From Candidatus Woesearchaeota archaeon (lineage in GTDB: Archaea > Nanobdellota > Nanobdellia > Woesearchaeales > GW2011-AR4): DNA of 63,696 nt. The notes under the pieces were generated by a model. The model did no database searches, was not told where the DNA came from, and was given only the letters and a program-made list of their open reading frames with translations. The stretch spans positions 1 to 63,696 of the forward strand of contig JAGVXT010000011.1 in assembly GCA_018303655.1 (NCBI GenBank), read 5' to 3'. Positions 26,792-41,409 of the stretch are shown here, piece after piece. Each line of letters begins with the position of its first letter. Positions within the stretch are counted from its first letter, which is position 1. Made by a program: the position numbers and the translations under genes.

Positions 26792-29065
26792 CTACTTTTT
26801 TAGTGCGATTACAGCAAAAATATAGCATATAGCGCCTGTTATTAAGGCTGCATTGAAGCCCCAAATCAGCGACACTATCATGGACAGCACTCCGCCAAAT
26901 GTTGATGCAATCCCGTTTATGCCCCACATCCATGGAACCCACCTGTTTGAAAACTTTCCAACTCTCTCCAAACCAAATGGAAAAAACATTCCCATGAAGA
27001 AAGAGGGTAATGCAATAAATACAATTGACAATAATATTTTGAATGGCAAGCTAAAATGAGAAAACTTGGCGAAGATGTAAACCAAAAATGGTATGTAAAG
27101 CGCCATTATAACCACCAAAATCGCCGCTGCGCAATAAACCAAAAATTTAGATTTGTTGTAAAGCTTTGAAGCAAAATAGCTGCCAATTCCGCTAAAAAGC
27201 AGTATTGTGGACAATACAACAGAGAGCGCATAAACGGGGTTTTCTACAAAAATAGTAAATTTGTGAATGAGCACCAGTTCTATCATAATAAAACCAACAC
27301 CTATAAAAAAGAAATAAAACAGGTATTTTAATAAATCACTTCTATACTCATTTTTGTATAATAAAAAAGGAACTGCAAAAGCCACAATCAATGCTGCGGC
27401 TATTATAAAAAACAATATAAAAAGATATTTGATGGAAATAAATTGCATATTTTTAAATGTCAAATCGGTATCTTGGTTTACATTATAATCTTGACTATAA
27501 ACAGAATAAGTATTCCAGTAGAAGGGATGATTGTCTGTAATGTCTATTCTATTTAATTTAAATTTCCTTAAATTCTCAGGTCTCAAAAGCAAGGTTGTTA
27601 ACCCGATTTTTTGTGAATTCTCATTTATTTTTTTGATTTCTTCATCAGTAAATTCAATTTTTTTGAAGATTACTAATGAATATTTATCCCCTTTTACCAA
27701 TATCACGTTATTTTTGAATCCTATTCCCAGTTTATCCATCACCAAAACCCAGTTTTCCATATATCGCATAATGAACCAGTTTATATCTGCCACAGCAAAC
27801 AATCCATCTTCATCAAGGTGGTCAAAATACGATTTCAAAGCTTCTTTAGTGTAAAGATAGTTCTCCAGAAATGCGTAAGATGACAATCCTGCACCACCAT
27901 ACCTTTTAGAACTAGATAGGTATATTAAATCGTATTTATCTGGTGATTTTAAAAGAAAACTTCTCGCTTCTTCTATTGAAAGTTTAACGGAATTGTGATT
28001 ATAAATATTTAGCGAGCGATTGTCTTTCGCCAATTCTTGGGCCCTGTTTATTATCAAAGGGTTTATCTCCACTGCCGTTACTTTGCCATTCCCGGCATGG
28101 ACAGACATAACAACTTCCAAACCGGCGCCAGAGCCAATAATGAGAGAATTTGTATAGTTTTTTATAGTGTAAGGGAGATACTTTAAGGATCCTTCAAGAA
28201 ATTCCATTTTTTTTGGTTTGAACTCAACAAAAGTAGTTGTACCTATGCAATCAATCTTCATTTCATAAATATTTACATCCTGCGGTAATTGCCCAAACCC
28301 TGTACTAAAGTAGGGTATACCATGCTGCAGTTGATATGTATCAATTTGTGAAAAAGAGTTTGTCTCAGAAAATATTGGCTTTGTTTGATTTGGGCACACT
28401 ATGCTGAATGCCGGCAGAAAATAAGATAGTGCCACCAAAAATGCTATAAAGAGTCCAGCCAAGAACAATAAATATTTTGCATCTGGTTTTTTATCAAAAT
28501 TAATTAACAATAGGGGCAGAAATGAAAGAGCAAATACCAATATGATTGTTTTTTCCATACCAAAAATATCAAGCAAAAATATTGCAAGAAAAACCCCAAT
28601 CGCAGACCCGGCCATGCTAAAAAAATAGATTAAGTGGATTCTTTTAACATAAACTGTGAAGATTATGCCTGCGCAAACGCCCCAAACTAAATAAACAAAA
28701 AAAGTCAAAGTGAAAAACAAAATTTTGGCCAGAAGTTGGGAATTGATTAGGTAGTGCAAAGCAAAAAAAGGCGTTAAAAGCAGGAATAGATATAAGATTA
28801 TAGAAATTTGGAGTGTCTTGTCATAATTATTTCTTGATATGAGTGATTCATAAAAAAAATAAACAAATATACCGCCTAAACCTATGCTGAGAATTGCTGA
28901 AGATATCAGTATAAACTGGAAATCACTCCCAAACGAGACTTTAGAAACTCGCGTGAACATTATTTCTAGCATTAGCAGGGAAACAGATAGTAAAAAAAGC
29001 GCAAATCCTGAAAAGTATACACTGAATTTTTTCCCTTTGCCGAGATTATACCTTTTGTTTAGCAA
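26792..29065 (-). CDS. Polytopic membrane protein with a central spermidine-synthase-like SAM-binding domain
   Basis: LIIGSGAG, VTAVEINP, EEARSFL, ENYLYT, flanked by TM bundles ending WGING. Confidence 0.85.
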   Translation of the reverse strand: MLNKRYNLGKGKKFSVYFSGFALFLLSVSLLMLEIMFTRVSKVSFGSDFQFILISSAILSIGLGGIFVYFFYESLISRNNYDKTLQISIILYLFLLLTPFFALHYLINSQLLAKILFFTLTFFVYLVWGVCAGIIFTVYVKRIHLIYFFSMAGSAIGVFLAIFLLDIFGMEKTIILVFALSFLPLLLINFDKKPDAKYLLFLAGLFIAFLVALSYFLPAFSIVCPNQTKPIFSETNSFSQIDTYQLQHGIPYFSTGFGQLPQDVNIYEMKIDCIGTTTFVEFKPKKMEFLEGSLKYLPYTIKNYTNSLIIGSGAGLEVVMSVHAGNGKVTAVEINPLIINRAQELAKDNRSLNIYNHNSVKLSIEEARSFLLKSPDKYDLIYLSSSKRYGGAGLSSYAFLENYLYTKEALKSYFDHLDEDGLFAVADINWFIMRYMENWVLVMDKLGIGFKNNVILVKGDKYSLVIFKKIEFTDEEIKKINENSQKIGLTTLLLRPENLRKFKLNRIDITDNHPFYWNTYSVYSQDYNVNQDTDLTFKNMQFISIKYLFILFFIIAAALIVAFAVPFLLYKNEYRSDLLKYLFYFFFIGVGFIMIELVLIHKFTIFVENPVYALSVVLSTILLFSGIGSYFASKLYNKSKFLVYCAAAILVVIMALYIPFLVYIFAKFSHFSLPFKILLSIVFIALPSFFMGMFFPFGLERVGKFSNRWVPWMWGINGIASTFGGVLSMIVSLIWGFNAALITGAICYIFAVIALKK

Positions 29066-29086
29066 AATAATCTTTCCTCATCTCAT

Positions 29087-29710
29087 TCAAATGGTTTTAT
29101 TCATAATACACGCTTTTTTTTGAGAAAATAATAAATTCTTTGGGTTCAATTCCATAGCTTTATTAAAGTTTATTTTTGCAGCATTAAAATCTTTTATTTT
29201 GCATTGTAATTGTGCAAGCTTATAATAAAGATGCGAATTACTTGGATCTAAGTCTATAGCTTTATTAAGATATAAGATTGCATCTGTATTCTGATTTCTC
29301 CTTGCAAAACATAACCCCAGATAGGTGTATATTTCTGAACTAGGTTTGTTGTTCAATAAGTATTCATTAAATAATTCAATAGATTTATCATAGTCATTTT
29401 CTCTGCATAAAATATCTGCTTCCAAAATCAATTTAGAAATTTCTGATTTGACACTAATGCTTCTGATTATATAAAAAAATAAAACAATAAGTACCAAAAT
29501 TGCAAAAAAAGAGGATATAAATACAATTTTATTTTTATTTTTCGAAAGATGTTTTATGTGATTGTCTACTTTTTCTGGATGCCAACCAGATTTGACAAGA
29601 ACCATCCTTATTTCTTCTAAACTATGCCCTCTATCAACCTCCCTTTTTATATAACTCAAAAGTTTTTCATCGAGTATTGTAAAATTTCTAAAATTATCTT
29701 TATTGTCCAC
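29087..29710 (-). CDS. Membrane-anchored TPR protein
   Basis: Small N-terminal helical domain (YIK..RGHS.EEI...L..SGW), TM, TPRs. Confidence 0.8.
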   Translation of the reverse strand: MDNKDNFRNFTILDEKLLSYIKREVDRGHSLEEIRMVLVKSGWHPEKVDNHIKHLSKNKNKIVFISSFFAILVLIVLFFYIIRSISVKSEISKLILEADILCRENDYDKSIELFNEYLLNNKPSSEIYTYLGLCFARRNQNTDAILYLNKAIDLDPSNSHLYYKLAQLQCKIKDFNAAKINFNKAMELNPKNLLFSQKKACIMNKTI

Positions 29711-30422: not shown

Positions 30423-30860
30423 TTACTTCCTTGCTTTTTCTATCCTTCCCTTCAATAAAGCATCAAGGCTTTGGTCATTTACCTTTATGACCTGCCATCT
30501 GACTCCGGGAATGTCGCCTTTGCTTTTGCCCATTGCGCCTCCGATGCACTCTATGATTACTTCATCGTGCTCGTCAATCATCTTTGTTGCGCCGTCTCTA
30601 GGGCAGAAAGCCGTTACTTGCTTGCCATTTTTTATAAGCTGAACCCTGACGCATTTTCTCATACCGGAGTTCGGCTGCTTTGCCTCTAATTGCACTTTTT
30701 CCAAGACAATTCCCCGTGCCTGTGAAGCGCCTCCCAATGGGTCAGAGCGTTCCTTTAATCTCAATATTCTTTGTATATATGGCCTATAGTGCCATCTGCC
30801 ATCGCTTCTTCTTGATTTCAGCTTCTTGCCTGCATTCAACCCGCGTGATTTATTTGACAT
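30423..30860 (-). CDS. rps12: 30S ribosomal protein S12 (uS12)
   Basis: [30 protein letters not shown]. Confidence 0.98.
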
Positions 30861-31048
30861 ATTAGCTTGGTATTTTTAAGCGATTTTTAAAGGTTTGTAT
30901 GACAAGGCTTTGTGTTATCCATAAATTAAAAGGCAATAGAGTTATTTATAAAATACAAAAGTTTGGGGTTACGCACAGATTAATAAAGAGCAAAGATTTA
31001 AATAAATATAATCCTTACTATAGAGTAGTTATGGAATAAGGTGGAATA

Positions 31049-32014
31049 ATGCAAATAGAACCTTTTGAAAAATTAGTCCAACAAGCAACTGAAGAACTGT
31101 ACAGAAAACATCCTTGGTTAAGAAGAAAAATGATAAGAATTAAAGATGAAACTGTAGTCGAATATAGTGACGCCCAGTATTATCAATATATTTTACCGCG
31201 ATACCTATTCGAAGGCGTTGAAGACACAGAAAAATTGGAGGAGTGGTTTTTAGCTGAGACAAATAGCGGCTCACAAAAATTTAAAAGGGTATTGGAACTT
31301 GCATGTGGAAATGGAAGAGGCACACGTATAGTTGCCAAATATGCAAACGAACTGGATGCTGTAGATCTAAGCCCTTCGATGATAAGTAGCGCTCAAACTG
31401 TAAAGAATCTTACTAATGTTCGGTTTTATCGAGGAGATATGTTTGAATTTACCAATAAATTAGCTCGTGAAAATAGACTCCATGAGTATGATTTAATTTT
31501 TTCATTTTGGGGAATATTTTATGGTACAAATGACGAATTCATAACAGTAGACCAGCATGGAAATTTATTGGCTTTAGACCCACAAAGCGCTACCCAAAAA
31601 GCAGAAAGAAATCTAAGAACACTTTTTGACAATTTAACTCAAGGTACACAATTTTTATTCTTTCATGTAAGAAGTGATACTGAAGAACAGCTGATATATA
31701 GGCCAATTATAGGGGCTTATTGCAGTGCATTTATGCCACCAAGACCTACACCAAGCGAAATTATATTGAAAAAAGTTTTAGACAGTAGCGGAGTAGACTA
31801 TCAATGGAGAAATGTAGGTGGTTTTGTTGAGTATCCTTCTTTAGAAAAGGCTCTTGAAGTTAACTTGAATTTCCATTTAAAGGGATTCTTTAATGACAGA
31901 CTGGAATTGCCAATCATTTATCTTATCATAAGCAATGGACTACACCGTCACATACAAGAACAAAAAGTTAAAATGAGTGCTGGTTATATACATATAGAAG
32001 GGGTAAAAAGATGA
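31049..32014 (+). CDS. Class I SAM-dependent methyltransferase
   Basis: VLELACGNGRG, AVDLSPSMI. Confidence 0.85.
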   Translation: MQIEPFEKLVQQATEELYRKHPWLRRKMIRIKDETVVEYSDAQYYQYILPRYLFEGVEDTEKLEEWFLAETNSGSQKFKRVLELACGNGRGTRIVAKYANELDAVDLSPSMISSAQTVKNLTNVRFYRGDMFEFTNKLARENRLHEYDLIFSFWGIFYGTNDEFITVDQHGNLLALDPQSATQKAERNLRTLFDNLTQGTQFLFFHVRSDTEEQLIYRPIIGAYCSAFMPPRPTPSEIILKKVLDSSGVDYQWRNVGGFVEYPSLEKALEVNLNFHLKGFFNDRLELPIIYLIISNGLHRHIQEQKVKMSAGYIHIEGVKR

Positions 32015-33615
32015 TAGACAAAGAAGTAGTGGATTTGTTTGGAGCAAGCGATTCTTTGAATGTTTCACAAATAGTGGAATATTTGAACATGCTTAGTAAA
32101 TACATATCTCCATTGCTCGGCAAGGGACCATTAACAAAGAAAAAACCTGTAGAGTCAGATAATATATTTGATCACTACCCCAGATCACTGGATCAAGTGT
32201 TCTCAGGCCTCTCAGTATATTTTACGGATTTAGTAAATTGGAGATCGCCTAGAACTCACTTTAATATAACTCCGCCCGTGTGTAATCCTGCAATCGCAGC
32301 AGCAGCTTTAGCACATGTGATGAACCAAACCTTAGTTTCTGATATGGGTTCAGGCAATCTCTCACAGCTAGAATTAGATATCGTAAAATGTTTTGGTGAA
32401 TTGGCAGGCTGGGATAGCAATTCTCCATCAGGAGTATTTACTTTTGGTGGTACTGGAACAAATATATATGGTGTTAAAATAGGTATAAATAAAGCAGATA
32501 GGCATACATCTGAAAGAGGAGTTCATAATGTAGTTACAGTCGATAGTGACCAGTGTCATTCATCACATAGAACTATTGCTGACTGGTTGGGAGTTGGAAT
32601 AAATAACAATATTCAAATACGAGCAGACGAAAGTGGAAGACTTAGAGCAACTGATATAATTAGTACTTTAGATGCATTAATTAAACAAAGCAAAGTTATT
32701 GGATGTGTTACATTAAGCGGAGGAACAACGTACGATTGGAGCATAGATCCTATTAAAGAAGTGAAAGAAGGCATAACAGAATTAGTTGCACGTCATAAGC
32801 TACAATATACTCCACACATACATACTGACGCAGTTATAGGCTGGGTTTATTTATTCTTTAAAAATTATAACTTTGATGCTAATCCATTAAGAATTTCTGA
32901 GAGAACTTTGACTAAAGTAAGGCAAGCCCGTGATAGAATTATTGAACTACGGTATGCAGATTCATTCGGTATAGATTTCCACAAAACAGGATTTTGCCCT
33001 ATAACATCCAGCCTTTTCATGCTTAGAAATAAGGATGATTGGAAAGTTTTAGGAAAAGGTACAGAACATGCTCATCATCAAGCATTTCAATTGGGGAGTT
33101 ATTCTCCTGGTAAGTATACCCTAGAAACATCACGAAGTACAGTAGGTCCTGTCACAACATATGTAACTTTAGCAGCATTGGGTATATCAGGTTACCAAAA
33201 AATAATTGCTGGCCTCGTGGAAGGTGCAGAGGATATGAGAATGCGCATAGAAAGTTCTGAAGGATTTTATAATTGCAACCCTTATGCCTTAGGATGGTGC
33301 ACAATGTTTTTAGTTAGAGATAATAACTCAAAAATTACCATGGAAGACCTATTAACTCATGCACCAGAACACATCACAAAAAAGAGTAATCAACTTCAAA
33401 AAGAGTTTCAGAAATATTTACGGTCTTTATGTTCTGAAAATGGTGGATGGCACATTAGTTGTTCGAATGATTACAAGAAAAGTGCAAGTGGCATAAGCAT
33501 TTCAACATTAAAACTATACCCAATGTCACCATTGTTACAAATTGGAGATAACAGAAATTTAATGGACTGGTTGGAACAAAGAAGAGAAGAATTTCTAGGT
33601 AGGAAAAATGCATAA
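32011..33615 (+). CDS. Group II PLP-dependent amino acid decarboxylase
   Basis: FTFGGTGTN, HSSH, GGTT, HIHTDAVIG, ADSFGIDFHK (PLP lysine). Confidence 0.9.
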   Translation: MIDKEVVDLFGASDSLNVSQIVEYLNMLSKYISPLLGKGPLTKKKPVESDNIFDHYPRSLDQVFSGLSVYFTDLVNWRSPRTHFNITPPVCNPAIAAAALAHVMNQTLVSDMGSGNLSQLELDIVKCFGELAGWDSNSPSGVFTFGGTGTNIYGVKIGINKADRHTSERGVHNVVTVDSDQCHSSHRTIADWLGVGINNNIQIRADESGRLRATDIISTLDALIKQSKVIGCVTLSGGTTYDWSIDPIKEVKEGITELVARHKLQYTPHIHTDAVIGWVYLFFKNYNFDANPLRISERTLTKVRQARDRIIELRYADSFGIDFHKTGFCPITSSLFMLRNKDDWKVLGKGTEHAHHQAFQLGSYSPGKYTLETSRSTVGPVTTYVTLAALGISGYQKIIAGLVEGAEDMRMRIESSEGFYNCNPYALGWCTMFLVRDNNSKITMEDLLTHAPEHITKKSNQLQKEFQKYLRSLCSENGGWHISCSNDYKKSASGISISTLKLYPMSPLLQIGDNRNLMDWLEQRREEFLGRKNA

Positions 33616-33627
33616 ACAAATAATAAT

Positions 33628-34443
33628 ATGATTAACAAACAAGCTGTAGAAAGTTTGGAGGAAAAACTTTCGCCAGAATTTAAAGGGTTAATGGGAAGAT
33701 TACAAGCCGAACAAAAAATAGTTGCAGCACTCTTATGTGGTTCACGTTCCCAAGGCACAGCTAGAAGTTATTCTGATTTTGATATATTCCTCATTACAAA
33801 CGGATACAATAAAGGAAATGTGCAGGTTGTTCATTATAAAGTTGGTCAAAAAAGGTTGGATGTTATGCTATATGAATATGGAACTATACTTAGAGAAAAC
33901 GAATTTGATGTGAGATTATTAAGTGTTCTTTTAAGAAATGCTTTGCCTCTATTTTCTCGAAATGAACGTCTGGTAGAGCAGTTAGGAAAATATATTAGGA
34001 ATACGCTTCATCATCAAACAGGTGAGCTCGAAAGACAGTCTATTTGGTATAACTTTATTTGGAATACTGGCAAGGCAAAATCTTATCAAAGTTCAAATCC
34101 AGAATTAGCTGAAGCCATTGTAATGGAGACATACTACTTCATTGGATTGTTTTATGCAAAACTTCATGGACAGGAGATATATAGCTTTGCTGAGAGTTTA
34201 AACTTTATGCAACAAATGAGCCCCAACTTTTGGAGAAAGTATAAGTCGGCATTAACACAACAAGATAGAATTAAAGCCGTGACAAATCTACTTCGAGAAT
34301 TACCTAGTGCTGATTTTTATTTGTCGCACAGTTCCTATGTTGAACTTGATAGTTTTATTAGTCCTTTAACCGTAGTCCCACCTTCATCGGACAGACATAT
34401 TGCATTTCAAAAATCCATGGACAGATTGATATTAGGATTATAA
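33628..34443 (+). CDS. Pol-beta superfamily nucleotidyltransferase with a helical C-domain
   Basis: CGSRSQGTARSYSDFDIF (GS...DxD) and a third Asp in RLDV. Confidence 0.85.
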   Translation: MINKQAVESLEEKLSPEFKGLMGRLQAEQKIVAALLCGSRSQGTARSYSDFDIFLITNGYNKGNVQVVHYKVGQKRLDVMLYEYGTILRENEFDVRLLSVLLRNALPLFSRNERLVEQLGKYIRNTLHHQTGELERQSIWYNFIWNTGKAKSYQSSNPELAEAIVMETYYFIGLFYAKLHGQEIYSFAESLNFMQQMSPNFWRKYKSALTQQDRIKAVTNLLRELPSADFYLSHSSYVELDSFISPLTVVPPSSDRHIAFQKSMDRLILGL

Positions 34444-34479
34444 ATGTCCTATAAATAAGTAAAAATTTTAGTCTTAAAA

Positions 34480-35214
34480 ATGAATCCAGATCAATTAGAA
34501 ATAGTATGTTGGGATGAAAAGTGGAAAGACCTACTAGGTAGAAGAGATGTGTCAAATTTTACCGATCCTGATAACATAAGGTATTACAGAGCATTTAATG
34601 GAGTAGTCAATAAAGTAACAGGGCCTGCTTATTCGGCATGTGAATTTGGATGTGGTAGCGGGACTCATCTTATTTACGCGCGAGATTTATTTGAGAGACT
34701 TTATTTTGTTGATGGCAGTCCAAATGCATTGTTGTATGCCGAATTTTTGTTAAGTATGCCAGGAGGATCAAAAAAAGGTTCATTTATAAAAGATAATGTG
34801 TTAGATTCTAAACTTGAGTCAGATTTATTTTATTTTACATTTAATTCCGGCGTCATAGAGCATTATTCAGAAGAAGATATCTTTAGAATTCTTCAAAATA
34901 TGCGAAGGGTTTCAAAACCAGGAGGAAAGGTACTGGTAGCTTGGCCGAATTTGTTGAGTATTGCTTCTGTATATCTAAGACTTACTGGCCATAGTCTTAC
35001 AACTGAAAGATATTATAGACCGAAAAAAATTAGAAATATAACATTAGAAGCAGGACTCTCAGGCATACAATCATACAATTTCCCTATTGTATGGCCGCCT
35101 GGATTTAGTCAGAATTTCTATGCAAGAACTTCTGGAATAGAAAGAATGCTAGCTAATATGGGTATGGGATTTTTACATATTTTATCAGCTGAAAAGGTAG
35201 GTCGTACAAAATAA
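34480..35214 (+). CDS. Class I SAM-dependent methyltransferase
   Basis: EFGCGSG, NSGVIEHY, RVSKPGG. Confidence 0.9.
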   Translation: MNPDQLEIVCWDEKWKDLLGRRDVSNFTDPDNIRYYRAFNGVVNKVTGPAYSACEFGCGSGTHLIYARDLFERLYFVDGSPNALLYAEFLLSMPGGSKKGSFIKDNVLDSKLESDLFYFTFNSGVIEHYSEEDIFRILQNMRRVSKPGGKVLVAWPNLLSIASVYLRLTGHSLTTERYYRPKKIRNITLEAGLSGIQSYNFPIVWPPGFSQNFYARTSGIERMLANMGMGFLHILSAEKVGRTK

Positions 35215-35227
35215 TCTATTAACTAAA

Positions 35228-35953
35228 ATGGAGAGTTCAAAAGACGCAGTAGGACAATTATTGATTGCACATTACCGAGGATTTGAAAGTTATGAGATTT
35301 TAGAAAGAGAAGACGGTGTTATAGGCTTGTCCGAAGGTCCTGCAAGATACTTTCTTGATTATAGTCAGTGGCCTGAAAACGAGAAACAAGCCATAAAACA
35401 TGCGAAAGGAAAAATTCTCGATGTAGGATGTGGTAGTGGAAGATTTTTGTCATATTTGCGAAAAAATGGATTTAATGTATTGGGGATTGATAATTCTCCT
35501 TTAGCAGTAGAAGTATGTAGACTTAGGGGATTAAAAGCGAAAGTTCTGGATTTGTTTGACATTGATAAACTTGATGAGAAATTTGATACTATATTAATGA
35601 TGTGGAATAACTTTGGTTTATTTGGAAGTAGAGATAGAGTGAAAAATGGTTTAGATTTATTTTACAGAATGACAAATGAAAGCTCTGTTATCATAGCTGA
35701 CAGTACCGATCCACACACAACTAATGAAGAAATCCATAAAGAATATCATAAATTAAATATTATGAAAGGGAGGATGTCAGGTCAACTAAGAATTCGAGTG
35801 AGATTTAAACAATATGCTTCAAACTGGTTTGATTATTTGTTAGTATCGGAACAGGAGATGAGAGAGGTAATAGACGGAACAGGATGGAGATTAGGCACTG
35901 TTTACAGGTGTAATTCATCATCTTATATTGCAATATTGGAAAAAATATGTTAA
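35228..35953 (+). CDS. Class I SAM-dependent methyltransferase
   Basis: ILDVGCGSGR, GIDNSP, NNFGLFG. Confidence 0.9.
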   Translation: MESSKDAVGQLLIAHYRGFESYEILEREDGVIGLSEGPARYFLDYSQWPENEKQAIKHAKGKILDVGCGSGRFLSYLRKNGFNVLGIDNSPLAVEVCRLRGLKAKVLDLFDIDKLDEKFDTILMMWNNFGLFGSRDRVKNGLDLFYRMTNESSVIIADSTDPHTTNEEIHKEYHKLNIMKGRMSGQLRIRVRFKQYASNWFDYLLVSEQEMREVIDGTGWRLGTVYRCNSSSYIAILEKIC

Positions 35954-35997
35954 AGGTGTAAAAATTAAAAGCATAAGTAGTAATTAGATTATCCAAA

Positions 35998-36642
35998 ATG
36001 ATAGAAGCTGTTATATTTGATATGGATGGAGTAATTATAGACACTGAGTCTTTCTCAGAATCGGTAGAGTTACCCTTCTTAAAGTCTAGGGCATTGGAAT
36101 GGAAAGAAGGTTACGAAAATCAGATCAGAGGTTCATCTCCTGAAAATGTTTACAATTTCTTAAAAACACATGGTGGTGTAAAAGCAGAATTAAGAGAATT
36201 TCTGACACAATATTGGTTACTGAGTGAGGATGTGTATAATAATCAAGTTTCTTTGACAAATGGCTTCCATGAAACAGTTCAAAATTTAAGAGCGAATAAT
36301 CTAAAAATAGCTTTAGCGTCATCGACACCAAGAAAGTTTGTTGATATTGTTGTAAACAGATTTAGTCTTAGTCCATACTTTGAAGTTATAATGAGTGGAG
36401 ACAACATATTACATCCAAAACCACACCCAGAAATATATTTAGTAACTATGCAAAAAATGGGAATTACTGCACCTAATGCAGTTGCTGTTGAGGATTCCTA
36501 CAATGGATTTTTGTCAGCAAAAAGAGCCTGCTTAAAAGGTATAGGATTAAAAACAAACTATAATAAATCTCATTTGTATTTAAGTGATACAACAATAAGT
36601 GACCTTCGTGAATTAACATTAGACAAGCTTCTTACATTATAG
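35998..36642 (+). CDS. HAD-family phosphatase (subfamily IA)
   Basis: FDMDGVIIDTE, LASS, KPHPEIY, VEDS. Confidence 0.92.
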   Translation: MIEAVIFDMDGVIIDTESFSESVELPFLKSRALEWKEGYENQIRGSSPENVYNFLKTHGGVKAELREFLTQYWLLSEDVYNNQVSLTNGFHETVQNLRANNLKIALASSTPRKFVDIVVNRFSLSPYFEVIMSGDNILHPKPHPEIYLVTMQKMGITAPNAVAVEDSYNGFLSAKRACLKGIGLKTNYNKSHLYLSDTTISDLRELTLDKLLTL

Positions 36643-36697
36643 ACAAATTTTCATCGTAAAAATAAAATGAAAAAGTTTTTAACCTTATAGGGATTGT

Positions 36698-37546
36698 ATG
36701 TTAAATATGAAGATTAGAATACTAGGTTCTGGAGCTTGGGAAGGGATTCCTGCGCCATTTTGCAAATGTAAAGTATGTGAATTAGCAAAAGAATATCCTA
36801 ATTCAAAAGATCATAGGACCAGACCCGAGATTTTGGTTGAGGGTGATAAAGGAAAATTTCTGATAGAAATAAGTCCAGATATTCGATTACAATCTGCCAA
36901 ATTTAATTTACCTGCAATTAGGAATTTTCTTATAAGCCATTGGCATTTTGACCATATGTACGGACTTATGGACTTGCATGCATGGTCAGAATTAGTCTTG
37001 AGGAGAAAAATTTGTCTTCATTGTTCCAAAGATACATCTAAATGGTTGAATAAAAACTTTAATCATATCAGCAAAAAGATAATAATCCACAAACCATTTG
37101 AATCATTTAGTTTGTACGGTATTATAATCACCGCTATACCAGTCTACCATATGTATACAAAAGATAAGAATTTAAAGGAAGATGAATTAAATAGTACTTT
37201 TGGGTATATTTTAGAAAAAAATAAAAAAAAAGTAGTTTTTCTGCCCGATTATTATAAGTTACCAGCCAAATCTTTAAAATTATGTACAAATGCGGATTTA
37301 CTCATTGTTGATGGAACTTTTTTATTTTCTGAATCTTTTCCTAAGAAATTTTTTCAAAAAATGATATTAACTGATAAAGACCATTTACATGGAAAGGATA
37401 TTTTTGCTTTAATTAAATTACTTAAACCTAAAAAGACCGTTTTTCACAGCATATCACATTTAACCGAAAAATCACATGAGAAATTACAAAATAAGTTACC
37501 TAAAAGTATTATTGTCTCATATGATGGTATAGAATTTGTTTTTTGA
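36698..37546 (+). CDS. Metallo-beta-lactamase fold hydrolase (PhnP-like phosphodiesterase)
   Basis: LGSGAWEGIP..CKCKVC, SHWHFDH, HSISH. Confidence 0.88.
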   Translation: MLNMKIRILGSGAWEGIPAPFCKCKVCELAKEYPNSKDHRTRPEILVEGDKGKFLIEISPDIRLQSAKFNLPAIRNFLISHWHFDHMYGLMDLHAWSELVLRRKICLHCSKDTSKWLNKNFNHISKKIIIHKPFESFSLYGIIITAIPVYHMYTKDKNLKEDELNSTFGYILEKNKKKVVFLPDYYKLPAKSLKLCTNADLLIVDGTFLFSESFPKKFFQKMILTDKDHLHGKDIFALIKLLKPKKTVFHSISHLTEKSHEKLQNKLPKSIIVSYDGIEFVF

Positions 37547-37601
37547 ATATCATATCTTTAAACCCTAATAACAATTTCTAATATTTATTTAATTTTAAAA
37601 A

Positions 37602-38015
37602 TCACTCCACTTTTATCTCCTTGATATCAAAATGTCTTCTTACAATGCCGCTTAAGTGGTTTATATTCTTCCTTTCCCTTCCTATGAGCATTGCCCTTGC
37701 ATGGGTGTCTTTTGCATGTATTATTATGCCTTCATTTTCCTGCCTTACATCAAGGATTTCCGCAGGGTAAACAATATTCTTCACAAACTGCAGGACATCA
37801 CTGCTGAACTCAACAAGCTTTACCTTCTTTCTCAGCTTGTTTTCCATTCTCTTTATGTTGGCGCCGTTTTTACCGATGGCTTTGCCCATGTCATTTTCCC
37901 CGATTATGAATATAATCTTTTCATTGGTAATGCAGTCCTTTACTTTTGCGCCCGTCATGGACTCAAAAAGCGTTATCAGCTTCATTGAATCAGAATCATA
38001 CTTGAGCTTGCTCAC
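37602..38015 (-). CDS. nusA: Archaeal NusA
   Basis: LFESMTGAKVKDC, GKAIGKNG KH motifs; position in the rpo operon. Confidence 0.95.
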   Translation of the reverse strand: MSKLKYDSDSMKLITLFESMTGAKVKDCITNEKIIFIIGENDMGKAIGKNGANIKRMENKLRKKVKLVEFSSDVLQFVKNIVYPAEILDVRQENEGIIIHAKDTHARAMLIGRERKNINHLSGIVRRHFDIKEIKVE

Positions 38016-38025
38016 TTACTTGCAC

Positions 38026-38177
38026 CTGTCAAAAACCACCAATCAAAGATTGATGGAGTGTTAATTAAACTAAAAAATCCAGTGGTTTTGGACACCTCAA
38101 AATTCCACAAATCATTAGGGTTTTTGAACACACAAAATTCCACTTTACATTCACCTTACATTTGTGGAATTTTGTTG
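38026..38177. repeat. Compound palindromic element overlapping the rpl30e 3' end
   Basis: CCACCAATCAAAGATTGATGG (AATCAAAGATT shared with 8651-8661); duplicated CAAAATTCCAC inverted to GTGGAATTTTG. Confidence 0.65.
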
Positions 38178-38447
38178 CTTAAGCAGCGCCAAAACAGAGA
38201 TAGAAAAAGGCTTCTTGCATATGACGCTTAATTCATCGTTAGGGTAGTCGAGCTTATGGAACTCCGCGCCGCTCAATCCAGCGTAATAGTTGATGTCCTT
38301 TTCAACGCCAGCAGGACAGTTTGAGCTTACCAATACCTTCTGCACTCTGCCTAGCTTCAGGTTTTTTATGGTTCTTTCAGTTCCGACCAGCACATTGCCT
38401 GCCTTGAGCATTTTCTTGATTTCAGCTGCATTGATTTTTTTTGCCAT
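38151..38447 (-). CDS. rpl30e: 50S ribosomal protein L30e
   Basis: VGTERTIKNLK, SSNCP, ELSVICKKPFSISVL; operon position. Confidence 0.93.
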   Translation of the reverse strand: MAKKINAAEIKKMLKAGNVLVGTERTIKNLKLGRVQKVLVSSNCPAGVEKDINYYAGLSGAEFHKLDYPNDELSVICKKPFSISVLALLKQQNSTNVR

Positions 38448-38523: not shown

Positions 38524-41214
38524 TTAAGTCGTGCTTATGATCCTCTTAACATTAATAACCCCGTTTTCTGACTTTGAAACGTCAATCCCGTCTTCCCCGT
38601 ATTCAAACTGGATTATTTTCCTGGAAGCATCCCGTACAGTATTGTCATACTCCACCTTTAAGTCCTGCATTGCGTTTGCAAGCCTTCTGTACAAATAGCC
38701 GCTTTTTGGCGTTCTTAATGCAGTGTCCATCAGTGAATCACGGCCTGTCATTGAGCCAAAGAAAAATTCTGCCGGAGTCAATCCATTTTTGAATCCGTTG
38801 CTGATGAATCCATGCGCTTCAGGGCTTAAGTCGCCTTTTTTGAAATTTGACAATGTCCTCTTGTCAAATCCCTTCTCTATCCTTTTGCCTCTCATAGCCT
38901 GCTGGCCTACGCAGGCAGCCATTTGCGCCAGGTTCAGCAGATTTCCCCTTGCACCAGAATCTGCCATTATCATTGTGTGGGTTCTTTTGTCGGCATAATT
39001 TGCAACTGTCCTTCCAGTCTCGTTCCTTGCTTTGTTCAAAACTTCGAGTATTCTAAGCTCCAATGTTTCCTGTAATGTCTTTCCGGGGAATGCCTCCAGC
39101 TTGCCTTCCTTAAAATTCGCAATTAAATTATCCACGTCTTTTTTCGCTGTGTCGAGGTCTTCCCTTATCTTCATTTTTGCAGGCTCAGGAAGATCCGTGT
39201 CTGACAATGCTGATGTAAATCCCGTCCTTAATAAATACTCTATGCCAAGCCTGAAAATCTTTCCAAGCAGGTCAATGCTATAGTCTTTTCCATATTTTTG
39301 GTGGATATTCCTCAGCATCAGTCCGGATTCTTCTCCAAGCGAGTTCCTGTCCATGACTCCTGCAATAAGCTTGCCTTCCCCTATTACTACATGGCTGTCC
39401 TTGTCGCATTTGTCCTTTGACCTGTCGCATAATCTTGAATGCCCGCTGTAATTAAAATTATCAGGCAATAAAACGCTGAAGACTTCCTTGCCCGTCACAA
39501 CAGACTTTCTTGACAGCTTTGAAAAATCAGTTACTCCAACTGCTGACAGCAAGTCAATGGCATCTTCTCTTTTCACAGAGTTCTCTTTTGTCAAAAGATA
39601 GTTGCCGGATATTGCATCCTGGGTGCATCCAATCAAGCTTAACCCATATCTCAATGATACAAGCTGCGTCTGCACCTCCATTAGGATTTCAGCCTCTGCC
39701 CTTGCCTCTTCTGTCTGCGGGATATGTAAATTCATTTCATCACCGTCAAAATCAGCATTATAGGGAGTGCACACAGCAGGGTTTAATCTCAAAGTCTTTC
39801 CAGGCAATATTTTAATTCGATGGCACATCATGCTCATCCTGTGCAAACTTGGCTGCCTGTTGAATATTGCAATGTCTCCATCCATAAGATGCCTTTCGAC
39901 AATATAGCCCGGCTGCAACTCCTCCAAAGATGCTTCTTTTGTCTCTTCTGTGATTTTTTTCTTCTTGCCATCAGGCCTTATTATATAATTGGCTCCGGGG
40001 TACTTGTCAGGTCCTTTTTCAACAAACGTTTTCAGATATTGTATGTTCCATTCGTTTGCCCTTTCAGGGACTGTAAGCTTTGTTGCAATGATAAATGGAA
40101 CTCCTACCTCAAAAAGCTCAAGCATAGGGTCGGGGCTTATGACTGTCCTGGAACAAAAGTTTGTCCTTTTGCCTGCAAGATTATGGCGAATCCTGCCTTC
40201 CTTGCTCTTTATCCTTTCAGTCAGTGTCTTTAGCGGCTGGCCGCTTCTGTGCCTTGCTGGCGGAAGCTGCGCAATATTATTGTCAAAAAATGTTGTTACA
40301 TGGTACTGCAGCAAATCCCACAAGTCCTCAACAATTATTTCAGGGGCGCCTGCATTTATGTTTTCAAACAGCCTTTGGTTTATCCTCACAATATCTCCCA
40401 TCTTGTGCGTTAAGTCATCCTCGCTTCTTTCCCCGCTTTCCAGAGTTATGCTTGGCCTCATTGTTACAGGAGGAATTGCAAGAACTGTCAATATCATCCA
40501 TTCAGGCCTTACATGAGGAACCTTCAATCCGAATATTTCGCAGTCGCTGTCCGGAATTTTTTCAAGTCTTGCCCTTATTTCTATCGGGCTTATCCTTTTC
40601 TCGTCCTCTAAAAAGGTTGTTGGCTTTTCCATGCTTATTTTTTTCTGCTTTGACTTGCAATGGGGGCATTTGTTCACAGTCTTCAATGCAGCTATTATTT
40701 CCTTGACTTTCTGCCTTCGCTCCTCTATGCCGCTTTCTTTTTCAACCTGGTCAAGAAGCTCCTTGGTCTTGCTTATCTTGTTGTCCGGAATCAAAACCCT
40801 GCCGCATTCCCTGCAAGTGCATTTCAGGATTGTCATAACTATATTGACAAACTTGACATGAATAATCGACCTTGCAAGCTCAATGTAGCCAAAGTGCCCT
40901 ATGCATTCCTTCAGCTTTGAGCCGCAGGTCTTGCACCTTAATCCCGGGTCTATGACTCCCAATCTTATGTCCATCAGGCCTCCATCAACAGGATAGCCCT
41001 CCTTGTCATAAAGCTCCGGCGTCACGATTTTCGCAGAAGCCATCTTTTTAATCATCTTAGGGCTTAAAACAGAAAAAGTGATGCTCTTGACTTGCTTGTA
41101 TATGTACTGCTCTTCCTGCTCTATCCTTTCTGTTTTTTCTTTCTTGCCTTCTATGGCCTGTTTGACAACTTCAAGCTCCTGCTCTGCTTTTTGTTCTGTT
41201 TCTTCTTCTGCCAT
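38524..41214 (-). CDS. rpoA1: RNA polymerase subunit A' (Rpo1N)
   Basis: CIGHFG, NRQPSLHRMS, YNADFDGDEMN catalytic motif. Confidence 0.99.
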   Translation of the reverse strand: MAEEETEQKAEQELEVVKQAIEGKKEKTERIEQEEQYIYKQVKSITFSVLSPKMIKKMASAKIVTPELYDKEGYPVDGGLMDIRLGVIDPGLRCKTCGSKLKECIGHFGYIELARSIIHVKFVNIVMTILKCTCRECGRVLIPDNKISKTKELLDQVEKESGIEERRQKVKEIIAALKTVNKCPHCKSKQKKISMEKPTTFLEDEKRISPIEIRARLEKIPDSDCEIFGLKVPHVRPEWMILTVLAIPPVTMRPSITLESGERSEDDLTHKMGDIVRINQRLFENINAGAPEIIVEDLWDLLQYHVTTFFDNNIAQLPPARHRSGQPLKTLTERIKSKEGRIRHNLAGKRTNFCSRTVISPDPMLELFEVGVPFIIATKLTVPERANEWNIQYLKTFVEKGPDKYPGANYIIRPDGKKKKITEETKEASLEELQPGYIVERHLMDGDIAIFNRQPSLHRMSMMCHRIKILPGKTLRLNPAVCTPYNADFDGDEMNLHIPQTEEARAEAEILMEVQTQLVSLRYGLSLIGCTQDAISGNYLLTKENSVKREDAIDLLSAVGVTDFSKLSRKSVVTGKEVFSVLLPDNFNYSGHSRLCDRSKDKCDKDSHVVIGEGKLIAGVMDRNSLGEESGLMLRNIHQKYGKDYSIDLLGKIFRLGIEYLLRTGFTSALSDTDLPEPAKMKIREDLDTAKKDVDNLIANFKEGKLEAFPGKTLQETLELRILEVLNKARNETGRTVANYADKRTHTMIMADSGARGNLLNLAQMAACVGQQAMRGKRIEKGFDKRTLSNFKKGDLSPEAHGFISNGFKNGLTPAEFFFGSMTGRDSLMDTALRTPKSGYLYRRLANAMQDLKVEYDNTVRDASRKIIQFEYGEDGIDVSKSENGVINVKRIISTT

Positions 41215-41409
41215 TTTTTGTTTAATTTTTTGATTCTTTTTTATTGGATTTTAGTAATGTTCAATCGTTAATGATTTTTGAGTTATTGAATTTTTTATTT
41301 TTCAATATTGGGTTTTGTTAAGTTTTGATTAATGTGAATTTGATGTTTTTTGTTGATTTTGTTTTTTCTTTCCCAGCGCATTATAAAAAAAATATTTTTT
41401 AAAAAACAT

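What the first reader, a model, noticed from the sequence alone, without database searches (positions are those of the whole stretch)
31049..37546. Seven-gene enzymatic island inserted antisense between nusA and rps12: candidate new small-molecule pathway
The co-oriented, closely spaced genes encode MTase, group II PLP decarboxylase, pol-beta nucleotidyltransferase, MTase, MTase, HAD phosphatase and PhnP-like MBL hydrolase. They split the conserved nusA-rps12 junction and look different in codon style from the core genes. I recognise no named pathway with this set. The chemistry implied is decarboxylation to an amine, up to three methylations, nucleotidylation, and removal of phosphate or phosphodiester. 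Hypotheses: a choline/betaine-like methylamine head group, a nucleotide-linked metabolite or toxin with self-protection, or antiviral nucleotide chemistry. Any of these would be notable in a biosynthetically reduced lineage.
Basis: partly seen in the sequence, partly recalled or inferred. Interest (0 to 1): 0.8.

Follow-up and report, generated by a model that had tools for sequence, protein, structure and literature searches.

The report
Enzyme island splitting archaeal nusA-rps12
A small-genome archaeon carries a foreign-looking block of seven enzyme genes wedged into a normally unbroken core operon; its heart is an amino-acid decarboxylase paired with a nucleotide-attaching enzyme, a pairing that recurs in many tiny-genome microbes and matches no described pathway.

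Summary
Seven intact, co-oriented ORFs (31049-37546, +) encode three class I methyltransferases, a group II PLP decarboxylase (DC), a pol-beta nucleotidyltransferase (NT), a HAD phosphatase and a PhnP-like MBL hydrolase. In 19 of 20 relatives' stretches nusA and rps12 are adjacent, so this is an insertion. All seven genes have GC3 in the 3rd-7th percentile of the genome. Independent contigs span the junctions.

The seven-gene set was found nowhere else: 0 of 162 DC loci, and no orthologues in 40 relatives. Only DC+NT is conserved, in 5 other loci at 41-45% / 36-39% identity.

More widely, this DC family sits beside pol-beta NTases of five unrelated families: 33 of 510 nearby ORFs against 1 of 1081 distant ones. 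A phosphodiesterase is often there too, with PF01663 in 15 of 88 neighbours in 30 loci.

Best reading (0.45): a mosaic accessory operon built on a DC-NT-phosphoesterase core that makes or recycles a nucleotide-linked or phospho-amine, with methylation added in this lineage. The substrate is unknown, and no named pathway fits.

The parts
30423..30860 (-). rps12 (ribosomal protein S12), left flank of the insertion
   Evidence: PF00164 at 140.6 bits. It lies directly next to nusA in 19 of 20 relatives' stretches.
30861..31048 (.). 188-nt AT-rich spacer between divergent rps12 and g1. It presumably holds both promoters. It also contains a 46-aa ORF (30899-31039, +) of unknown reality.
   Evidence: Sequence read; ORF listed. 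No flanking direct repeats were found.
31049..32014 (+). g1, class I SAM-dependent methyltransferase-fold protein (321 aa). Its stop overlaps the g2 start by 4 nt.
   Evidence: Methyltransf_31 at 38.4 bits. Motif I VLELACGNG is in the translation. There is only one homologue, P0130 at 45% identity. The best PDB match is plant phosphoethanolamine N-methyltransferase, E 4.3e-5, over the SAM-binding part only.
32011..33615 (+). g2, group II PLP-dependent decarboxylase (534 aa); core gene
   Evidence: PF00282 at 66.2 bits. K325 in the DFHK motif, D273 and H183 are invariant in 25 homologues. AF2 gives pLDDT 88.6. Foldseek gives TMq 0.71-0.76 to GAD65/67, CSAD, DABA, Lys, Trp and Tyr decarboxylases at 15-18% identity. 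All NCBIfam equivalog scores are far below cut-off.
33628..34443 (+). g3, two-domain pol-beta nucleotidyltransferase (271 aa); core gene, conserved partner of g2
   Evidence: G38-S39...D50-x-D52 is invariant in 11 sequences. AF2 gives pLDDT 82.9. Foldseek gives ANT(4')/kanamycin NTase TMq 0.58 and LinB 0.55. Only 8 clusters were found in the large protein search. Homologues lie right after the DC in L004, L104, L105, L107 and L109.
34480..35214 (+). g4, class I SAM methyltransferase (244 aa)
   Evidence: Methyltransf_25 at 41.6 bits. Only domain-level matches in 3 of 40 relatives.
35228..35953 (+). g5, class I SAM methyltransferase (241 aa) of a defined but functionally unnamed family
   Evidence: Full-length match to PDB 9khp/9klx 'class I SAM-dependent methyltransferase', E 6e-36. 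No paper on those entries is in the library.
35998..36642 (+). g6, HAD-IA phosphatase (214 aa)
   Evidence: HAD_2 at 104.9 bits. The best NCBIfam match is hexitol phosphatase HxpB at 116 bits, below its 191 cut-off. The N-terminal FDMDGV motif is present. Relatives hold only paralogue-level matches of at most 32% identity.
36698..37546 (+). g7, PhnP-like MBL-fold phosphodiesterase (282 aa); candidate phosphoesterase member of the core
   Evidence: Lactamase_B_2 at 73.4 bits. PhnP TIGR03307 scores 80.7, below its 272 cut-off. PDB matches are 6b9v at E 4e-16 and PhnP 3g1p at 5e-13. HWHFDH and CKCKVC motifs are in the translation. No orthologue in 40 relatives.
37602..38015 (-). nusA (archaeal KH-only NusA), right flank of the insertion
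   Evidence: KH_5 at 54.2 bits. Found in 38 of 41 genomes searched.

Best explanation
The block is a real, species-specific accessory operon of about 6.7 kb, of foreign composition, that landed between nusA and rps12 of a small-genome archaeon.

**Anatomy.** It is a mosaic built round a conserved two-gene core: a group II PLP-dependent amino-acid decarboxylase (g2) followed by a two-domain pol-beta nucleotidyltransferase (g3). The fold of g3 is that of the small-molecule O-nucleotidylyltransferases ANT(4') and LinB.

In other lineages the same decarboxylase family pairs again and again with unrelated pol-beta NTases. A phosphodiesterase usually accompanies them (NPP-type, LigT, PHP, HD or MBL). 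Here that third role most likely falls to the PhnP-like MBL hydrolase g7, helped by the HAD phosphatase g6. The three methyltransferases are additions of this lineage.

**Proposed mechanism.**
1. g2 removes the alpha-carboxylate of a free amino acid to give a primary amine.
2. g3 uses an NTP to put an NMP on a hydroxyl of that amine (or of its amino-acid precursor), giving a nucleotide-linked amine.
3. g1, g4 and g5 methylate it, most simply on nitrogen.
4. g7 and g6 cleave the phosphodiester and phosphomonoester, releasing or recycling a phospho-amine or amine.

**Shown:** gene integrity, catalytic motifs, folds, the insertion, the composition, and the recurrent DC-NT(-phosphoesterase) linkage.

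**Inferred:** the substrate, the order of steps, that all seven genes serve one route, and the product.
For: **Insertion and coherence.**
- nusA-rps12 is adjacent in 19 of 20 relatives' stretches.
- All seven genes have GC3 in the 3rd-7th percentile of 962 ORFs.
- Spacing is tight, with an ATGA overlap of g1 and g2.
- One contig spans both junctions at the flanks' depth.

**Core pair.**
- The g3 homologue lies directly after the DC in 5 loci whose DCs are the closest relatives fetched (L004, L104, L105, L107, L109; 41-45% and 36-39% identity).
- On a 138-row DC tree the window falls in a supported 8-row clade, 6 of them NT-positive.

**Wider linkage.**
- An N-terminal G[SG]...DxD motif occurs in 33 of 510 ORFs within two genes of the DC, against 1 of 1081 farther away, over 154 de-duplicated loci.
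- The partners fall into 5 BLAST-unrelated families of 18, 6, 5, 2 and 1 loci, across Bacillota, Saccharimonadota, Pseudomonadota, Spirochaetota and archaea.
- 6 of 9 c3-type partners hit Pfam Polbeta.
- The c31 type models as a CCA/poly(A)-polymerase head, TM 0.69-0.75.
- NT adjacency needs at least 10 changes on the DC tree.
- PF01663 phosphodiesterase is the commonest further neighbour, 15 of 88 same-strand neighbours in 30 NT-positive loci. LigT (2), His_Phos_1 (2) and PHP also occur. Gene order within the NT/PDE/DC trio varies.

**Supporting detail.**
- g3's fold neighbours are small-molecule NTases.
- g7's solved relatives are nucleotide or ribose phosphodiesterases: PhnP, and 6b9v, called 'FAD photoproduct diphosphatase' in a figure legend of PMC7599082.
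- Distant family members sit beside amino-acid/amine antiporters in Plesiomonas, so the family acts on free amino acids.
Against: - The seven genes never co-occur elsewhere: 0 of 82 and 0 of 80 loci.
- In the five closest DC-NT loci the pair stands alone, followed by a convergent TrpRS. There is no methyltransferase or MBL there, and only L104 has a HAD gene, on the other strand.
- Methyltransferases are not among the 25 commonest neighbour families.
- Short gaps are normal in such compact genomes, so tight spacing is weak evidence of one pathway.
- 65 DC loci with enough flanking sequence have no NT neighbour, so the DC works without one.
- No substrate could be inferred. Fold matches are equally good to Glu, cysteine-sulfinate, DABA, Lys, Trp and Tyr decarboxylases.
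- If the product amine has no hydroxyl (as for Trp, Met or Glu), the proposed O-nucleotidylation fails.
- g6 and g7 were assigned the phosphoesterase role by analogy only.
- The motif scan is a regular expression, not a profile, and the loci are phylogenetically related.
Confidence: 0.45

Rival explanations
1. Mosaic of unrelated cargo. Only g2 and g3 (perhaps with g1) work together. g4-g7 are independent accessory enzymes that travelled on the same acquired DNA or accumulated at a permissive site, so there is no seven-step pathway.
For: - The set was found nowhere else: 0 of 162 loci.
- The closest DC-NT loci lack all the other five genes on the operon strand.
- g4, g5 and g6 have only generic family-level relatives.
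- Methyltransferases are not recurrent DC neighbours.
- The genome is compact, so short gaps are uninformative.
Against: - All seven share the same extreme GC3 and one orientation with gaps of at most 55 nt.
- A separate conserved cluster in three related genomes also joins DC, an NTase, a methyltransferase and two phosphoesterases (PHP, LigT). The functional mix therefore recurs with different parts.
- An MBL gene lies two genes after the DC in L108.
Confidence: 0.3
2. Choline-like or phosphocholine-like head-group route. This is the first reader's first hypothesis and is analogous to the serine decarboxylase / phosphoethanolamine methyltransferase route of plants and Plasmodium. Ser gives ethanolamine, three N-methylations follow, then nucleotide activation, with HAD and MBL acting as phosphocholine phosphatase and esterase.
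For: - There are three methyltransferases for three methylations.
- g1's best PDB match is phosphoethanolamine N-methyltransferase, E 4.3e-5.
- An amino alcohol would give g3 its hydroxyl.
- The pathway logic is as stated in the abstracts of PMC6705855 and PMC4357015 (listing).
Against: - The g1 match covers only the SAM-binding stretch 78-163.
- No choline/ethanolamine kinase (PF01633) and no LicD (PF04991) were found in this 88%-complete genome.
- g3 is a pol-beta NTase, not a cytidylyltransferase-family enzyme.
- Methyltransferases are absent from the other DC-NT loci.
- The DC shows no special likeness to any serine decarboxylase.
Confidence: 0.12
3. Nucleotide-conjugate antimetabolite with self-protection, in the logic of microcin C maturation. 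There, a methyltransferase-fold enzyme (MccD) and a PLP decarboxylase (MccE N-domain) put an aminopropyl group on the phosphate of a peptidyl-adenylate that poisons an aminoacyl-tRNA synthetase. Here g1 would transfer an aminocarboxypropyl group, g2 would decarboxylate it, g3 would make the nucleotide conjugate, and g6 and g7 would detoxify.
For: - g1 (methyltransferase fold) is translationally coupled to g2.
- The MccD/MccE logic was read in PMC10491745, section 2.1.1.
- DC homologues lie beside aaRS genes strikingly often. TyrRS occurs, often in two copies, in 16 of 78 clustered sources. TrpRS is beside the closest DC-NT pairs. MetRS is in cluster B. HisRS-like and ThrRS genes are in L108.
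Against: - There is no ThiF/MccB-type enzyme, exporter or immunity acetyltransferase among the seven.
- The only upstream small ORF (46 aa, ending ...VVME) is unlike a short Asn-terminal precursor (the precursor features are recalled).
- g1 is not conserved with the DC.
- No aaRS gene lies in or next to this island.
- aaRS adjacency may reflect regulation, as in the recalled tyrS-tdc arrangement of lactic acid bacteria, or gene-dense small genomes.
Confidence: 0.07
4. Covalent regulation. The NTase nucleotidylylates the decarboxylase itself, as GlnE does to glutamine synthetase (recalled), and the phosphodiesterase removes the mark. NT and PDE would be regulators, not pathway enzymes.
For: - It explains why non-homologous NTases and phosphoesterases can replace one another next to one DC family.
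- It explains why many DCs stand alone.
Against: - g3's nearest folds are small-molecule NTases.
- NPP, LigT and PhnP-type enzymes are not known de-AMPylases (recalled).
- It leaves the three methyltransferases unexplained.
Confidence: 0.05
5. Anti-phage defence or other conflict system using nucleotide chemistry.
For: - g3 has a weak fold likeness to Hailong HalB, TMq 0.34-0.41.
- g3 has a weak hit to a PADLOC candidate, PDC-S09, E 2.5e-6 over the NTase head.
- The block is an accessory island of foreign composition.
Against: - No system-level PADLOC match; the methyltransferase hits are to a generic domain.
- No DC relative in the viral contig collection.
- Neighbours of DC homologues are housekeeping genes, not defence genes.
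Confidence: 0.03

Closest known systems
Group II PLP-dependent amino-acid decarboxylases (GAD65/67, CSAD, L-2,4-diaminobutyrate, DfoJ lysine, Trp and Tyr decarboxylases)
   Same: Same fold: TMq 0.71-0.76. The Pfam PF00282 match is above cut-off. The Schiff-base lysine in an HK motif and the Asp and His positions are invariant.
   Different: Only 15-18% identity to any solved member. Every NCBIfam equivalog score (26-81 bits) is far below its cut-off (299-905 bits). It forms its own large family (more than 500 loci in each collection) with no assigned substrate.
Aminoglycoside 4'-O-nucleotidyltransferase (kanamycin NTase) and lincosamide NTase LinB
   Same: Two-domain build: a pol-beta head with GS...DxD plus a helical C-domain. 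TMq is 0.54-0.58 and 0.55. By analogy it would transfer an NMP to a hydroxyl of a small amine-bearing molecule.
   Different: 11-14% identity and no sequence-level PDB match. It is a tiny family (8 clusters) that always lies next to the decarboxylase. Nothing links it to antibiotics.
Microcin C maturation (MccD methyltransferase-fold ACP transferase + MccE PLP decarboxylase + MccB adenylyltransferase)
   Same: The same trio of enzyme kinds (SAM-dependent methyltransferase fold, PLP decarboxylase, nucleotidyl transfer) builds an amine-decorated nucleotide conjugate (PMC10491745, section 2.1.1).
   Different: There is no ThiF-like MccB, no short precursor peptide gene, no exporter and no GNAT. 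The PLP fold of MccE is different (recalled). g1 is not conserved with the DC.
Serine decarboxylase / phosphoethanolamine N-methyltransferase route to phosphocholine (plants, Plasmodium)
   Same: Decarboxylation to an amino alcohol followed by three N-methylations, with HAD-type phosphatases acting on the products (abstracts listed; the HAD role is recalled).
   Different: No kinase or LicD was found in the genome. The NTase is of another superfamily. The PMT likeness of g1 is confined to the SAM site.
PhnP (phosphoribosyl cyclic phosphodiesterase) and PDB 6b9v MBL diphosphatase
   Same: g7 aligns end to end with both, E 5e-13 and 4e-16. It keeps the HxHxDH motif and an N-terminal CxCxxC motif.
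   Different: It scores 80.7 bits against PhnP's 272 cut-off. No C-P lyase genes are nearby.
tyrS-tdc tyrosine decarboxylase operon of enterococci and lactobacilli (recalled, not checked in a paper here)
   Same: In bacterial members of this DC family a TyrRS gene, often two, lies beside the decarboxylase.
   Different: It is a different decarboxylase family: TIGR03811 scores 35 bits against a 905 cut-off. No antiporter is present in most loci. The window's island has no aaRS gene.

Membership tests
Group II PLP-dependent decarboxylase (PF00282) | Profile match above the curated cut-off | tested here: met
   66.2 bits against 27.
Group II PLP-dependent decarboxylase (PF00282) | Conserved PLP-binding lysine and ring-contacting Asp and His | tested here: met
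   K325 (in DFHK), D273, H183 and H186 are invariant or nearly so in 25 sequences. Their roles are assigned from general knowledge of the family.
Group II PLP-dependent decarboxylase (PF00282) | Fold | tested here: met
   AF2 pLDDT 88.6; TMq 0.71-0.76 to more than 20 solved group II decarboxylases.
Any named decarboxylase equivalog (DABA, PanP, MfnA, TyrDC, HDC, GAD) | Score above the NCBIfam equivalog cut-off | tested here: not met
   Scores of 81, 63, 54, 35, 30 and 26 bits against cut-offs of 900, 606, 299, 905, 305 and 380.
Pol-beta superfamily nucleotidyltransferase | G[SG]-x(9-13)-DxD motif plus a third carboxylate | tested here: met
   G38, S39, D50 and D52 are invariant. An acidic residue in the RLD/RLE motif about 25 residues on is present in all 11 sequences. 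NTP_transf_2 scores 22.2 against 21; Polbeta scores 24.5 against 26.9.
ANT(4')/LinB-type small-molecule nucleotidyltransferases | Two-domain architecture superposable on solved members | tested here: met
   TMq 0.54-0.58 (ANT(4')) and 0.55 (LinB), probability 1.00.
ANT(4')/LinB-type small-molecule nucleotidyltransferases | Sequence-level family membership and an antibiotic substrate | tested here: not met
   No PDB sequence match at E of 0.1 or better; 11-14% identity. The substrate is not testable here.
PhnP (TIGR03307) | Equivalog score and C-P lyase context | tested here: not met
   80.7 bits against 272. No phn genes flank it. The MBL motif is present.
HAD-IA phosphatase | Profile match and the DxDGx nucleophile motif | tested here: met
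   HAD_2 at 104.9 bits against 23.8. FDMDGV lies at residues 7-12.
Phosphocholine (serine decarboxylase-PMT or Lic) pathway | Ethanolamine/choline kinase, cytidylyltransferase-family NTase, LicD-type transferase | tested here: not met
   PF01633 and PF04991 were not found in G000 (88% complete). g3 is a pol-beta type enzyme.
Microcin C-like peptide-nucleotide cluster | ThiF/MccB adenylyltransferase and a short precursor gene | tested here: not met
   There is no ThiF domain among the seven. The only small ORF is 46 aa.
Known anti-phage defence systems (PADLOC 2.0) | System-specific protein models | tested here: not met
   Only generic methyltransferase-domain hits and weak NTase-head hits.
Integrative mobile element / genomic island | Insertion relative to relatives and deviant composition | tested here: met
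   19 of 20 relatives lack it at this site. GC3 is in the 3rd-7th percentile.
Integrative mobile element / genomic island | Integrase or transposase, flanking direct repeats, tRNA target | tested here: not met
   None were found among the ORFs. No flanking repeats. No tRNA in the window.

The most novel reading that the evidence does not exclude
The island is one instance of an undescribed three-part enzyme system: a distinct family of group II PLP decarboxylase, a pol-beta nucleotidyltransferase, and a metal-dependent phosphodiesterase. The system has been assembled repeatedly from non-homologous parts in reduced-genome symbionts (DPANN archaea, Saccharibacteria, gut Bacillota, gut Alphaproteobacteria). 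It would make nucleotide-linked biogenic amines. These could be a kinase-free route to phospho-amine head groups (ROH + NTP gives RO-NMP, which gives RO-P), or a new class of amine-nucleotide conjugates acting on aminoacyl-tRNA synthetases, whose genes neighbour these loci unusually often. In this archaeon the product would in addition be methylated up to three times.
Probability: 0.3. Interest if true: 0.78.

Novelty: new variant of a known kind. Interest (0 to 1): 0.6.

Why it matters
Small-genome episymbionts (DPANN, CPR) are thought to have almost no biosynthesis of their own. An acquired, intact enzyme operon is therefore likely to matter for how they deal with hosts or their environment.

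The decarboxylase-nucleotidyltransferase(-phosphodiesterase) linkage found here spans archaea and at least four bacterial phyla, uses interchangeable parts, and matches nothing I could find in print. It is directly testable with three recombinant proteins.

If the product is a nucleotide-linked or phospho-amine, that would add a new way of activating or decorating amines. If instead the genes prove unrelated cargo, the locus is still a clean example of foreign DNA breaking one of the most conserved archaeal gene strings without harm.

Tried and rejected
- **Complex prediction.** The g2+g3 job gave 'no answer' (score 0.00). It is not used as evidence either way.
- **Expression.** No RNA holder was listed among the sequencing runs, so expression is untested.
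- **Viruses.** A viral contig scan with the DC alignment found no relative.
- **Defence.** PADLOC gave no system.
- **NT family comparisons.** Profile-profile comparison of the g3 family with the c31 family (probability 0.2%) and the c3 family (probability 14.6%, NTase head only) showed no homology beyond the motif. They are counted as separate families.
- **Mobile element signs.** No flanking repeats, no tRNA and no Rfam family mark an integration site.
- **Literature.** 0 papers hold decarboxylase + nucleotidyltransferase + phosphodiesterase + tyrosyl-tRNA synthetase + gene cluster. One generic review holds 'PLP-dependent decarboxylase' + nucleotidyltransferase + operon. 0 papers cite PDB 9KHP, 9KLX or 9KM6. 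The library lacks most subscription journals, and supplements were closed.
- **SAM decarboxylase idea.** The genome already has a classical AdoMet_dc gene on C14, so this was dropped.
- **Family-wide search for a second copy.** 2 of 69 other genomes have a DC. G433's (37%) has no NT and an unrelated context. G008's is the cluster B type.
- **Plasmid collection.** 113 records hold only distant DCs (26-33% identity) in other contexts: antiporters, an aminotransferase, a 214-aa ORF.
- **Substrate from fold.** It is not discriminating.

Full report
**What is there.** The window carries seven + strand ORFs at exactly the coordinates given: g1 31049-32014, g2 32011-33615, g3 33628-34443, g4 34480-35214, g5 35228-35953, g6 35998-36642 and g7 36698-37546. 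g1 and g2 overlap by 4 nt. The remaining gaps are 12, 36, 13, 44 and 55 nt.

- g1, g4, g5: class I SAM methyltransferases
- g2: group II PLP decarboxylase (PF00282, 66.2 bits)
- g3: pol-beta nucleotidyltransferase head
- g6: HAD-IA hydrolase (104.9 bits)
- g7: MBL-fold hydrolase whose best named relatives include PhnP

No protein reaches any NCBIfam equivalog cut-off. The catalytic signatures are intact:
- K325, D273 and H183 in g2
- GS...DxD plus a third acidic residue in g3
- SAM motif I in the three methyltransferases, DMDGV in g6, and HWHFDH plus CxCxxC in g7

**It is an insertion, and it is real.** The flanks on the - strand are rps7, rps12 and nusA, rpl30e, rpoA'. That marks an archaeon. 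The genome is 1.26 Mb at 88% completeness. The tools give no lineage name, so 'DPANN-like' is my inference.

I located nusA in 38 of 41 related genomes and fetched 20 stretches. In 19 of them nusA and rps12 are direct neighbours, about 40-390 nt apart. One (L098) shows no rps12 within about 9 kb. The closest relative (86% NusA identity, L084) has no insertion.

All seven island genes have GC3 of 0.217-0.262, the 3rd-7th percentile of 962 ORFs of at least 150 aa in this genome. The mean is 0.392 (sd 0.074), and the flanking core genes are at 0.48-0.50. A neighbouring TPR gene (29087-29710) is equally low, so low GC3 is a class of genes here, not a unique mark.

No integrase, flanking repeat or tRNA marks the borders.

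A single 7537-nt contig from run X1 (possibly the source sample) covers 30681-38217 at depth 17, equal to the flanks. A 406-nt contig in X7/X8 bridges g7 and nusA. The seven proteins are on record from 10-26 contigs, the longest 72630 nt. An assembly chimera is therefore very unlikely.

**Do the seven genes belong together?** As a set they occur nowhere else that I could look.
- tblastn of all seven against 82 loci around DC homologues from species-representative genomes found g3 in one locus and none of the other five.
- The same search against 80 metagenome loci found g3 in four, a HAD gene on the opposite strand in one, and two weak partial methyltransferase hits.
- g1 has one homologue (45%) in the 5.8-billion-protein search. 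g3 has seven.
- g1, g2, g3, g6 and g7 have no paralogue in the own genome.
- In 40 relatives, g7 has only superfamily-level hits of at most 23 bits. g6, g5 and g4 have only family-level hits of at most 35% identity.
- The DC itself is rare in the lineage: 1 of 24 genus genomes first sampled, 2 of 69 in the family, 3 of 400 in the order.

**The conserved core.** The five fetched loci with the closest DCs (41-45% identity: L004, L104, L105, L107, L109) all carry a g3 homologue (36-39%). It lies immediately downstream, with overlapping ends, and is followed by a convergent gene. That gene is a tryptophanyl-tRNA synthetase in the three loci I tested, L004, L107 and L109 (NCBIfam equivalog passed in L004 and L109); in L105 it is an untested ORF of matching size. 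Contig sizes suggest that three further DC homologues share contigs with g3 homologues.

The AF2 model of g3 (pLDDT 82.9) superposes best on the two-domain small-molecule O-nucleotidylyltransferases ANT(4')/kanamycin NTase (TMq 0.54-0.58) and LinB (0.55). The match to Hailong HalB is worse (0.34-0.41).

The g2 model (pLDDT 88.6) is a standard group II decarboxylase. It is equally close (TMq 0.71-0.76, 15-18% identity) to Glu, cysteine-sulfinate, DABA, Lys, Trp and Tyr enzymes, so it gives no clue to the substrate.

**A wider pattern that was not in the finding.** The DC family is large: 579 confirmed loci in the genome collection and 506 in metagenomes, both capped.

I scanned 154 de-duplicated loci for ORFs with an N-terminal pol-beta motif. 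Within two genes of the DC, 33 of 510 ORFs had it. Farther away in the same loci, 1 of 1081 did. A looser pattern gave 34 of 727 against 5 of 864.

The partners fall into five families unrelated at BLAST level, with 18, 6, 5, 2 and 1 loci.
- For the largest (c3 type), 6 of 9 members hit Pfam Polbeta or NTP_transf_2.
- Another (c31) has no Pfam hit, but its Atlas model matches CCA-adding/poly(A) polymerase heads at TM 0.69-0.75.
- Profile comparison finds no homology among these families beyond the motif.

On a FastTree of 138 DCs, NT adjacency needs at least 10 gains or losses, 9 of them forced by supported branches. The window's DC sits in a supported 8-row clade with 6 NT-positive rows.

Among 88 same-strand neighbours in 30 NT-positive loci, the commonest family by far is PF01663, type I phosphodiesterase/nucleotide pyrophosphatase, with 15. 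LigT (2), His_Phos_1 (2) and PHP also occur. Methyltransferases are not among the top 25. The order of NT, PDE and DC varies between loci, which speaks for functional rather than inherited linkage.

A second conserved cluster occurs in three genomes of the same order (G008, G101, G108). It reads MetRS | DC, CCA-like NTase, (343 aa, seen in G101), GT2, PHP, methyltransferase, LigT; G108's ORFs were matched by size only. L108 has DC, a HisRS-like protein, then an MBL hydrolase. L106 has DC, a transketolase-like protein, then an HD hydrolase.

The recurring theme is decarboxylase + nucleotidyl transfer + phosphoester hydrolysis. In the window g3 fills the second role, and g7 (with g6) plausibly fills the third.

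**How it most likely works.**

*Shown:* an intact group II decarboxylase, an intact ANT-like NTase, three methyltransferases and two phosphoesterases in one foreign block, and a recurrent DC-NT(-PDE) linkage.

*Inferred:*
1. g2 makes a primary amine from a free amino acid. Distant family members sit beside GadC-type antiporters in Plesiomonas, which supports free amino acids as substrates.
2. g3 puts an NMP on a hydroxyl of that amine or its precursor.
3. The methyltransferases methylate it.
4. g7 and g6 cleave the diester and monoester.

I put 0.45 on this general scheme. Much less rests on any particular substrate.

The choline-like version fits the count of three methyltransferases. It lacks a kinase and LicD in this genome, and the methyltransferases are not conserved with the core.

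A microcin C-like logic is attractive because aaRS genes neighbour DC homologues so often. In that logic a methyltransferase-fold ACP transferase plus a PLP decarboxylase act on a nucleotide phosphate (PMC10491745, section 2.1.1). The aaRS neighbours are TyrRS in 16 of 78 clustered sources, often two copies, plus TrpRS, MetRS, a HisRS-like protein and ThrRS. Against it, there is no MccB-type enzyme, precursor or exporter here.

The sober rival is that only g2 and g3 are linked and the rest is unrelated cargo. I give that 0.3.

**Comparison with the known, and novelty.** Each protein belongs to a known superfamily. None belongs to a named functional family: every equivalog test failed.

The combination matched no pathway in NCBIfam or PADLOC, nor in the literature searches I ran. 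The library lacks most subscription journals, and supplements were closed.

I file it as a new variant of a known kind, an acquired small-molecule enzyme operon. A 0.3 chance remains that the DC-NT-phosphodiesterase triad is a distinct, undescribed system.

**Limits.**
- The motif scan is a regular expression, and the loci are related to each other.
- The Pfam tally used a container alignment.
- No expression data exist.

Noticed in passing
window 38524-46387 (- strand): The RNA polymerase genes are in an unusual order. The ORF with Rpb1 domain 5 (A'', 41410-42567) lies upstream of the ORF with Rpb1 domains 1-4 (A', 38524-41214). As a result A', not A'', abuts rpl30e. Relatives also show A' directly before rpl30e. 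Two further ORFs of 562 and 495 aa upstream (43065-46387) are presumably a split rpoB; I did not annotate them.
   Followed up: partly
L005-L083, L004, L105, L107, L109, L108, L003, L185, L186: Homologues of the decarboxylase lie next to aminoacyl-tRNA synthetase genes unusually often. TyrRS occurs, frequently as two tandem copies, in 16 of 78 clustered sources. TrpRS lies convergent to the closest DC-NT pairs. MetRS lies before cluster B. L108 has a class Ib aaRS, a HisRS-like protein and ThrRS around its DC. I did not correct for phylogeny or for small-genome gene density.
   Followed up: partly
L003 (G008), L185 (G101), L186 (G108): A conserved cluster occurs in three genomes of the same order (G008 is in the window's own genus): MetRS | DC, CCA-adding-enzyme-like NTase (no Pfam hit), GT2 glycosyltransferase, PHP phosphoesterase, methyltransferase, LigT 2H phosphoesterase. 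An extra 343-aa unknown is seen in G101. G108's ORFs were matched by size only.
   Followed up: partly
window 30899-31039 (+): A 46-aa ORF (MTRLCV...YYRVVME) fills most of the spacer between rps12 and g1 and ends 9 nt before the g1 start. Nothing shows that it is a gene.
   Followed up: no
window 4198-5844 (-): The GC-rich spot of the window (0.535 against 0.38) is a 548-aa ORF with a signal-like N-terminus and Gly-rich 'NVGIGT' repeats. By eye, its C-terminal part resembles a fibrinogen-related domain. It was not searched against any library. No rRNA, tRNA or Rfam family is in the window.
   Followed up: no
window 26792-29710 (-): Just beyond rps7 lie a 757-aa protein with a spermine/spermidine synthase domain (27 bits) and a 207-aa TPR protein. 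The TPR protein's GC3 (0.222) is as low as the island's. The genome has a classical AdoMet decarboxylase on C14.
   Followed up: partly
L187 (Bacillus cereus plasmid), L188 (Plesiomonas plasmid), L189 (Melissococcus plasmid): Distant members of the DC family (26-33% identity) are on 113 plasmid records, 89 of them Bacillus. The contexts are two GadC-like antiporters (Plesiomonas), a class I/II aminotransferase (Melissococcus), and a 214-aa ORF of unknown family (B. cereus).
   Followed up: partly
L106 40-762: An IS240-type DDE transposase lies directly upstream of a DC homologue (41% identity), which is followed by a transketolase-like protein and an HD hydrolase. This hints that these decarboxylase modules move.
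   Followed up: no
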